Assembly: GCA_964016885.1 (NCBI GenBank) | Contig: OZ024756.1 | Coordinates: 41,292,001-41,356,000 of the forward strand | From: Eledone cirrhosa | Taxonomy: Eukaryota | Direction: 5' to 3' | DNA: 64,000 nucleotides | Notes under the pieces: model-generated | Told to the model about the DNA's origin: nothing | Seen by the model: only the letters and a program-made list of their open reading frames with translations | Databases searched by the model: none | Shown here: piece after piece, positions 25,800-26,509 of the stretch | Layout: every line of letters starts with the position of its first letter | How positions within the stretch are numbered: position 1 is the stretch's first letter | Position numbers and translations under genes: made by a program

Positions 25800-25846
<47 letters not shown>

Positions 25847-25984
25847 GAGGTAAACAAGATTCAATGAGTATGTCAAAGAATGAGTTTTACAGTAGATTGG
25901 AAGCACTCTACAGAAATAATTTTCCAGAGTTATTAATATTAAAATACAAATATTAATAAAATAGATGTTCTTTTGATCAATTAA

Positions 25985-26037
25985 ATTTTATTATACATAT
26001 TTCGGAGGTAAAACAGTACGTCCTCATCAGACAAAAT
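25985..26037 (-). ncRNA. Minimal type I hammerhead ribozyme motif
   Basis: Minus strand ATTTTGT-CTGATGA-GGAcGTA(ctgttt)TACcTCC-GAAA-TATGTATA-ATAAAAT. Confidence 0.75.
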
Positions 26038-26160
26038 ATAATATACATGACATACCCTGAGATGTTAAATGGTTAAGATTTAATCAAGGTAGTCATTGAC
26101 CTCAATTCAGTATTGACTTGGTCAATGGCCTCACTTCAGTATTTAGTCATGTATCATTAT

Positions 26161-26212
26161 ATTTTGTCTGATGAGGACGTACTTTGTACCTCCGAAATAT
26201 GTATAATAAAAT
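26161..26212 (+). ncRNA. Minimal type I hammerhead ribozyme motif
   Basis: ATTTTGT-CTGATGA(26168-74)-GGAcGTAC(ttt)GTACcTCC-GAAA(26194-97)-TATGTATA-ATAAAAT. Predicted cleavage after 26205. Confidence 0.78.
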
Positions 26213-26509
26213 TTAATTGATAAAAAGAACATCTATTTTATTAATATTTGTATTTTAATATATATATATATATAGGACAATGTTTAACCCCGATGGCAGT
26301 GCTCAAGGCATTTCAACGGGTATTTCTGGAATTTAGTCCAGAAATAGCCGTCGAAACGGTAGTGGGACGGGGGGGGGGTGTATTTTTGTTAAGAGGTGCC
26401 TACTGGCTGTATATATATATATATATATATGTGTGTGTATATATATGTATGTATATATTCCGAAATATATATATATATGCATGTGTGTGTATATGTATGA
26501 ATATATTCC

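What the first reader, a model, noticed from the sequence alone, without database searches (positions are those of the whole stretch)
25842..26261. Second, divergent hammerhead fold-back element preserves the same structure, including a conserved C-C mismatch in stem II
Seen: relative to the 2.0-2.5 kb element, similarity is essentially confined to the ribozyme (attatattttRtCTGATGA...GAAATATGTATAatRaaat). Stem I stays paired through different wobbles (ttttAt/atGaaa vs ttttGt/atAaaa). Stem II has entirely different sequence (AAG/CTT vs GGA/TCC), yet both keep a C-C mismatch at pair 4. The two arms of this copy differ in loop II while keeping the stem. The predicted cleavage triplet is AUA in all four motifs. 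Inference: selection on an RNA structure, defining a distinctive hammerhead subfamily.
Basis: partly seen in the sequence, partly recalled or inferred. Interest (0 to 1): 0.75.

Follow-up and report, generated by a model that had tools for sequence, protein, structure and literature searches.

The report
Penelope hammerhead keeps one unpaired cytosine
This mirror-image repeat is a short, likely dead stub of a Penelope-type jumping gene carrying a predicted self-cutting RNA; across more than 70,000 genomic copies of that motif one cytosine nearly always stays unpaired while neighbouring pairs swap, which likely marks an untested contact site.

Summary
The observation mostly holds. 25842-26261 is two head-to-head ends of a Hydra-type Penelope-like retrotransposon in (TA)n, each with a minimal type I hammerhead (AUA; predicted cuts after 26205 and 25992). 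Long copies carry RT plus GIY-YIG. One pattern finds 74,222 such motifs against 1 control hit. In 21 families, neighbouring stem pairs covary while stem II pair 4 never pairs. What is conserved is the 5' C, opposite C (60%), U (31%) or A (4%), almost never G (0.36%, scattered), so it is not strictly C-C. Corrections: the two arms differ by private mutations, one of which breaks a pair; the two window elements are homologous; and a read-through transcript of this copy would bury the ribozyme in a 125-bp hairpin. Family ends fall at two fixed sites (+56, +152), and 5' ends pile up at a TATA/Inr-like start 102 nt before the cut, not at the cut, so uncut RNA is the usual template. Cleavage and the role of the C are untested. 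The scan noted the mismatch earlier on other pieces of this genome, and such stubs in other genomes. New variant of a known kind; interest 0.45.

The parts
25803..25841 (.). (TA)n target, left flank
   Evidence: no target duplication can be read inside the repeat
25842..25935 (-). one-sided tail: sequence between the family's two fixed 3' ends (+57 to +152 from the predicted cut)
   Evidence: 24 of 47 arms end at +152, 21 of 47 at +56
25936..26093 (-). left arm: pseudo-LTR from the inferred transcript start (-102) to +56
   Evidence: contig depth falls about 8-fold past 26093
25985..26037 (-). left hammerhead; unpaired C at 26020 opposite C at 26007; private change at 26011 breaks the loop-closing pair; predicted cut after 25992
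26093..26094 (-). inferred transcript start (A at 26093, in a TCACT Inr-like context in longer copies) with an extra G at 26094, possibly a copied cap
   Evidence: inference
26095..26146 (.). filler joining the two arms; no match to the family reference copy
   Evidence: no contig cover at 26108-26135
26147..26261 (+). right arm: 5'-truncated pseudo-LTR, -59 to +56
26161..26212 (+). right hammerhead: stem I 26161-67/26206-12, core CTGATGA 26168-74, stem II 26175-93 with C26178 opposite C26190, GAAA 26194-97, self-complementary ATATGTAT 26197-204, predicted cut after A26205
26262..26274 (.). (TA)n target, right flank
2031..2558 (.). comparison element of a related family: same architecture, hammerheads at 2130(-) and 2372(+), C2382 opposite C2405, tail on the right

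Best explanation
The element is an abortive, head-to-head insertion of the ends of a Hydra-type Penelope-like retrotransposon, and its predicted minimal type I hammerhead belongs to a lineage that keeps one cytosine of stem II unpaired, likely as a base-specific contact with helix I or with the element's own protein. Shown: linkage of this exact motif to an RT + GIY-YIG reading frame, two fixed 3' ends, a 5' pile-up at -102, covariation, an invariant C that is not opposite G in any family. Inferred: the RNA starts at a TATA/Inr promoter 102 nt before the cut; the enzyme nicks (TA)n and primes at the two internal sites on the two DNA ends; cDNAs run to the capped 5' end or stop early and are joined, giving a fold-back with a one-sided tail. 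The ribozyme would cut only as a dimer through the 8-nt palindrome, slowly or with protein help, so uncut RNA is the usual template. This copy would be silent as a ribozyme in a read-through transcript.
For: Same motif 1.5-1.7 kb behind a GIY-YIG-type frame with a CxCX5C linker in L092 and flanking RT frames in L157, L158, L159, L160, L161, L174; Atlas look-alikes at 0.96-0.98 include GIY-YIG and RVT_1 clusters (run on the sister family's frame, 55% identical in RT). Ends at +56/+152 in 45 of 47 arms; 14 of 17 two-armed loci have one of each. 618 copies have a non-C just before -102 versus 1,306 with C; 28 of the first 30 end there; 39 of the 100 listed have G (my count). Only 49 copies have a non-A at the cut position, and 5 of the first 30 start there. 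Pair 4: C.C 44,342, C.A 3,026, C-G 265, non-C 3,260, C.U about 23,329 by subtraction, of 74,222; the 100 listed C-G cases are spread over many families. Cluster analysis of 212 motifs not picked for deviation: pair 4 unpaired in 16 of 16 multi-copy clusters, pairs 2, 3 and 6 paired in 16 of 16. The C is the only one of 32 stem columns with zero changes on the tree; mean of the others 3.6. Literature: inverted truncated copy plus tail (PMC8557442, PMC3846280); two internal RT starts, uncut template and protein-assisted cleavage (PMC11167929); dimer need (PMC4209133).
Against: No cleavage or expression data. Zero changes at the C has a Poisson probability of about 0.03 on a noisy 64-column tree, and with 32 columns examined that test alone is weak; families are related and were picked by me, so shuffle counts overstate significance. 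One clustered singleton had G-C at pair 4 (L200, probably not of this lineage) and one lone motif has U-A there (L168). About 7 of the 12 inspected G-ended copies could have taken their G from the inverted partner or nearby repeats, so the cap reading rests on about 5 plus the window copy. No partner for the C was found in the alignment. Pfam found nothing in five frames. The core and palindrome were partly imposed by my search patterns.
Confidence: 0.72

Rival explanations
1. The mismatch is a brake: it weakens stem II so that the ribozyme stays slow and uncut RNA remains available for reverse transcription.
For: Copies span the cut and rarely start at it; no family has C-G; uncut RNA is the dominant substrate for another PLE in vitro (PMC11167929). 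Also suggested in scan note e1-8670794.
Against: Any mismatch would weaken the helix, yet the 5' base is always C while only its partner varies; stem II length and strength vary widely between families.
Confidence: 0.2
2. The C is simply inherited from the common ancestor and has not yet changed; only the helices are under selection.
For: All families are related; two other stem columns show only one change; Poisson P about 0.03 before correcting for 32 columns.
Against: Families differ by 45% in RT protein and in stem I sequence; the partner changed three times, never to G, although G would stabilise the helix; the adjacent pair 3 took three Watson-Crick forms.
Confidence: 0.12
3. The fold-back is a functional unit in its own right (a MITE-like or two-polarity ribozyme element, or a retrozyme).
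For: Fold-backs are common in the family; hammerheads occur on both strands.
Against: Junctions differ from copy to copy, the ends are unequal (+56/+152), the arms are ends of an RT-coding element, units are not tandem, and the hairpin (-190 kcal/mol against about -2 for the hammerhead fold) would bury the motif.
Confidence: 0.04

Closest known systems
Hydra clade of C-terminal EN+ Penelope-like elements (Craig et al. 2021, PMC8557442; includes Hydra-1_Obim)
   Same: DKT motif, RW motif, CxCX5C linker, CxxC and CxH around the EN end, (TA)n targets, type I hammerhead near the 3' end, inverted truncated copy with one-sided tail.
   Different: None of the Hydra hammerheads tabulated in File S2 (read) shows an internal C mismatch in stem II, and their stem III begins AC; elements here are about 4 kb with a 1.5-kb 3' UTR and a 94-96-nt tail rather than under 3 kb and 30-40 nt; tens of thousands of motif copies.
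PLE hammerheads with small palindromic helix III (Cervera and de la Pena 2014, PMC4209133)
   Same: Type I topology, long helix II, weak palindromic helix III implying a dimer, motifs on opposite strands 100-700 bp apart, many covarying families per genome.
   Different: No extra base between positions 9 and 10.1; G10.1-C11.1 in only 4 of 21 families; internal unpaired C at pair 4 (the nearest precedent read is a bulged base in mid helix II of D. virilis Penelope).
PAc Poseidon element in vitro (Frangieh et al. 2024, PMC11167929)
   Same: Two internal RT start sites bounding the tail, both DNA strands extended, AT-rich targets, uncut RNA as template.
   Different: Different clade; here the evidence is genomic only, and the hammerhead lies well upstream of the reading frame.
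Metazoan non-LTR retrozymes (PMC7229834; bioRxiv 10.64898/2026.07.22.740005)
   Same: Very many type I hammerheads per genome (126,247 in axolotl), dimer-dependent forms.
   Different: Those are tandem 150-450-bp units; these are dispersed, inverted ends of a coding element.

Membership tests
Type I hammerhead, PLE type | Core CUGANGA ... GAAA ... UH | tested here: met
Type I hammerhead, PLE type | Helices I and II with covariation, stem I open | tested here: met
   7 of 8 pairs in each helix change on both sides; slid controls lower
Type I hammerhead, PLE type | Short self-complementary helix III (dimer) | tested here: met
   83 of 84 cells pair in the 8-nt palindrome, with A-U/G-C and U-A/C-G swaps; partly imposed by the search pattern
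Type I hammerhead, PLE type | Conserved G10.1-C11.1 pair | tested here: inconclusive
   present in this element, but in 4 of 21 families only
Type I hammerhead, PLE type | Extra unpaired base between positions 9 and 10.1 (min-HHR consensus) | tested here: not met
   pairing register starts directly after CUGAUGA
Type I hammerhead, PLE type | Self-cleavage | not testable with these tools
   no assay; no RNA holder listed
Hydra-clade PLE | RT with DKT and RWK-like motifs | tested here: met
   SDKTNN in L156/L158; RWR read from L157, RWT in L095
Hydra-clade PLE | CxCX5C linker, C-terminal GIY-YIG without CCHH, CxxC and CxH present | tested here: met
   CNCRNKTDC, LVY..YIG, CALC, CLH, read by eye against PMC8557442 section 11
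Hydra-clade PLE | (TA)n insertion and hammerhead in the pseudo-LTR | tested here: met
   flanks; direct pLTR-ORF-pLTR in L157
Hydra-clade PLE | Generally under 3 kb | tested here: not met
   L157 spans about 4.1 kb; a tendency in the paper, not a strict criterion
Hydra-clade PLE | Phylogenetic placement with published Hydra RTs | not tested
   published sequences were only compared by eye
Non-LTR retrozyme | Tandem non-coding units, each with a hammerhead | tested here: not met
   inverted, dispersed, linked to a coding element
MITE / fold-back DNA transposon | Symmetric fixed termini and conserved interior | tested here: not met
   unequal ends and variable junctions

The most novel reading that the evidence does not exclude
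The unpaired C is the docking point of a protein-gated hammerhead: the Penelope RT-EN protein, or helix I, reads this base to switch cleavage on only at a late step. That would make this lineage a natural experiment in tens of thousands of copies for the open question of what hammerheads do in Penelope-like elements, with its transcript start and two priming sites readable from the genome.
Probability: 0.25. Interest if true: 0.7.

Novelty: new variant of a known kind. Interest (0 to 1): 0.45.

Why it matters
The role of hammerheads in Penelope-like elements is stated as unclear in PMC8557442, and one tested example needs the element's protein to cut (PMC11167929). An invariant unpaired base amid freely covarying pairs gives a precise point to mutate, and the family gives natural variants (C.C, C.U, C.A). 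The same data fix a candidate promoter, transcript start and two priming sites for a Hydra-type element, for which I found no such mapping in the papers read. The element itself is an ordinary dead insertion.

Tried and rejected
Rfam scan of the window: the 150 best of 400 matches were microRNA models on simple repeats and hairpins; no hammerhead among them, 250 rows not shown. Pfam: 0 families for 5 frames. PDB sequences: nothing under E 0.86. Sequencing runs: no RNA holder listed, so expression is open. First pair count had stems I and III mis-registered and was redone. An automatic end-mapping for three other families was swamped by microsatellites; by eye at least 5 of 38 arms of the comparison family start at ACTATC, without a clear TATA at -31. 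Alternative stem II registers with a bulged first base were rejected (slid controls). Single-strand MFE folds do not give the hammerhead for any of the four arms, and the left-arm stub has z = -1.1: thermodynamics alone does not support the fold. Dropped rows: 40 of 252 motifs that I had picked for deviating at pair 4, or by hand, were left out of the cluster counts. Lunse et al. 2017 on PLE hammerhead variants is not held and figures of PMC4209133 were not visible; either could already show such a mismatch. Searches that found no description.

Full report
Observation. The window holds two fold-back elements in (TA)n, at 25842-26261 and about 2031-2558. Each arm has CTGATGA, a stem II, GAAA, an 8-nt self-complementary stretch and an AUA triplet; predicted cuts follow 26205, 25992, 2420 and 2082. 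Two details are not. The arms differ because each has its own mutation from the family form; the one at 26011 breaks a pair. And the two elements share sequence outside the ribozyme, so they are relatives.

What it is. The right arm has 720 first-look candidates in the 3.0-Gb genome, 96-98% identical among the best. Longer copies run 1.5-1.7 kb upstream into a GIY-YIG-type frame with a CxCX5C linker. Copies of that frame run on into an RT with DKT and YRDD, and six fetched copies carry both the frame and this hammerhead on the same strand. L157 has the pLTR-ORF-pLTR layout. These motifs match the text definition of the Hydra clade (PMC8557442, section 11 read); no tree with published sequences was built. 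Pfam was blank; Atlas look-alikes include GIY-YIG and RVT_1 clusters.

How the fold-back arises. Of 47 arms in the first 30 loci, 21 end at +56 and 24 at +152 from the predicted cut; 14 of 17 two-armed loci have one of each. This fits the inverted copy with a one-sided tail (PMC8557442 and PMC3846280, passages) and the two internal RT starts shown for PAc (PMC11167929, passages and half of the main text). Following a lead from scan notes on other genomes I mapped 5' ends. 618 copies have a base other than C just before position -102 against 1,306 with C, and 28 of the first 30 stop exactly there. Longer copies show TATAAA 31 nt upstream and TCACT at the site. 39 of the 100 listed have G there, but of 12 inspected only about 5 cannot be explained by neighbouring sequence. 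The window's left arm is such a stub, +152 to -102, with a G at 26094. By contrast only 49 copies have a changed base at the cut, and 5 of the first 30 start there (a sixth flagged by the script is an internal deletion). I infer a capped transcript starting at -102 and uncut RNA as the usual template.

The mismatch. One pattern that does not specify stem II finds 74,222 motifs, control 1; a complementary pattern adds 6,462, control 54, mostly with the same C. Within the 74,222: C.C 59.7%, C.U about 31.4% (by subtraction), C.A 4.1%, C-G 0.36%, other 5' base 4.4%. C.A is mostly one subfamily of the window's own family; the listed C-G and non-C cases are scattered over many families, as post-insertion mutation would give. 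In 21 family representatives that I chose, the 5' C is the only invariant base outside the pattern-fixed core, pair 4 is unpaired in 21 of 21, and 16 of 20 pairs change on both sides. In 212 motifs not picked for deviation, pair 4 is unpaired in 16 of 16 multi-copy clusters and in 32 of 33 clusters overall. On a rough tree the C has 0 changes, its partner 3, other stem columns 3.6 on average. That is suggestive rather than decisive, since the families are related and the tree is short. Two lone motifs pair at this position (L200, L168).

How it likely works. The palindrome (ATATGTAT here; ATATATAT, ATGCGCAT, ATACGTAT in other families) implies a dimeric helix III, as described for PLE hammerheads (PMC4209133, parts 1-2 of 4 read; PMC6765202 passages). 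Because the 5' base is fixed and the partner is free so long as it is not G, I favour a base-specific contact, with helix I or with the element's protein, over a mere brake. That canonical hammerheads end helix II near this position and contact helix I there is from my own knowledge and passages of PMC3088659. No partner base was identified. In this copy a read-through RNA would form a hairpin of about -190 kcal/mol against about -2 for the monomeric hammerhead, so this locus is a fossil, not a working ribozyme.

Novelty. The Hydra hammerhead table (File S2) shows no such mismatch, and eight literature searches found no description. Lunse et al. 2017 could not be read, nor could any figures. 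High copy number has precedent (axolotl, PMC7229834 passages). Other papers seen: bioRxiv 10.64898/2026.07.22.740005 part 1 of 5; PMC6962438 passages. Scan notes on other pieces of this genome reach the same reading; they are not independent evidence. Verdict: real, a new variant of a known kind, with a sharp bench test; interest 0.45.

Noticed in passing
window 25905-25930 (-): An ACTC...GAGT stem begins six bases past the +56 end; scan notes propose it as the RT start signal. Seen here, not tested across families.
   Followed up: partly
G000:C17:41284478-41284927, about 9.5 kb before the window's element at 2031-2558: A near-identical second copy of the comparison element with the same flanks: local duplication or assembly repeat.
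   Followed up: no
L168:2007-2093 (-) and L200: Lone hammerhead-like motifs with a paired position 4; possible exceptions or chance matches.
   Followed up: partly
L020:2126-2218, L114:178-270, L171:308-619, L006:427-525: Related families with a much longer stem II and an AUC triplet that still keep C opposite C.
   Followed up: partly
L050:2705 (+), L034:2306 (-): Hammerheads of another type (stem III starting GAAAC, long stem II) without the C mismatch.
   Followed up: no
L100:1290-3438 (-), L113:1701-2748 (-), L098:1-1320 (-): Fragments of other Penelope-like clades beside the Hydra-type copies.
   Followed up: no
window 36894-38521 and 17476-18063: Broken LINE-type reverse transcriptase frames; family assignment from recall only.
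   Followed up: no
window 41439-41497 (+): Weak hit of the hammerhead model (E 0.13), probably chance.
   Followed up: no
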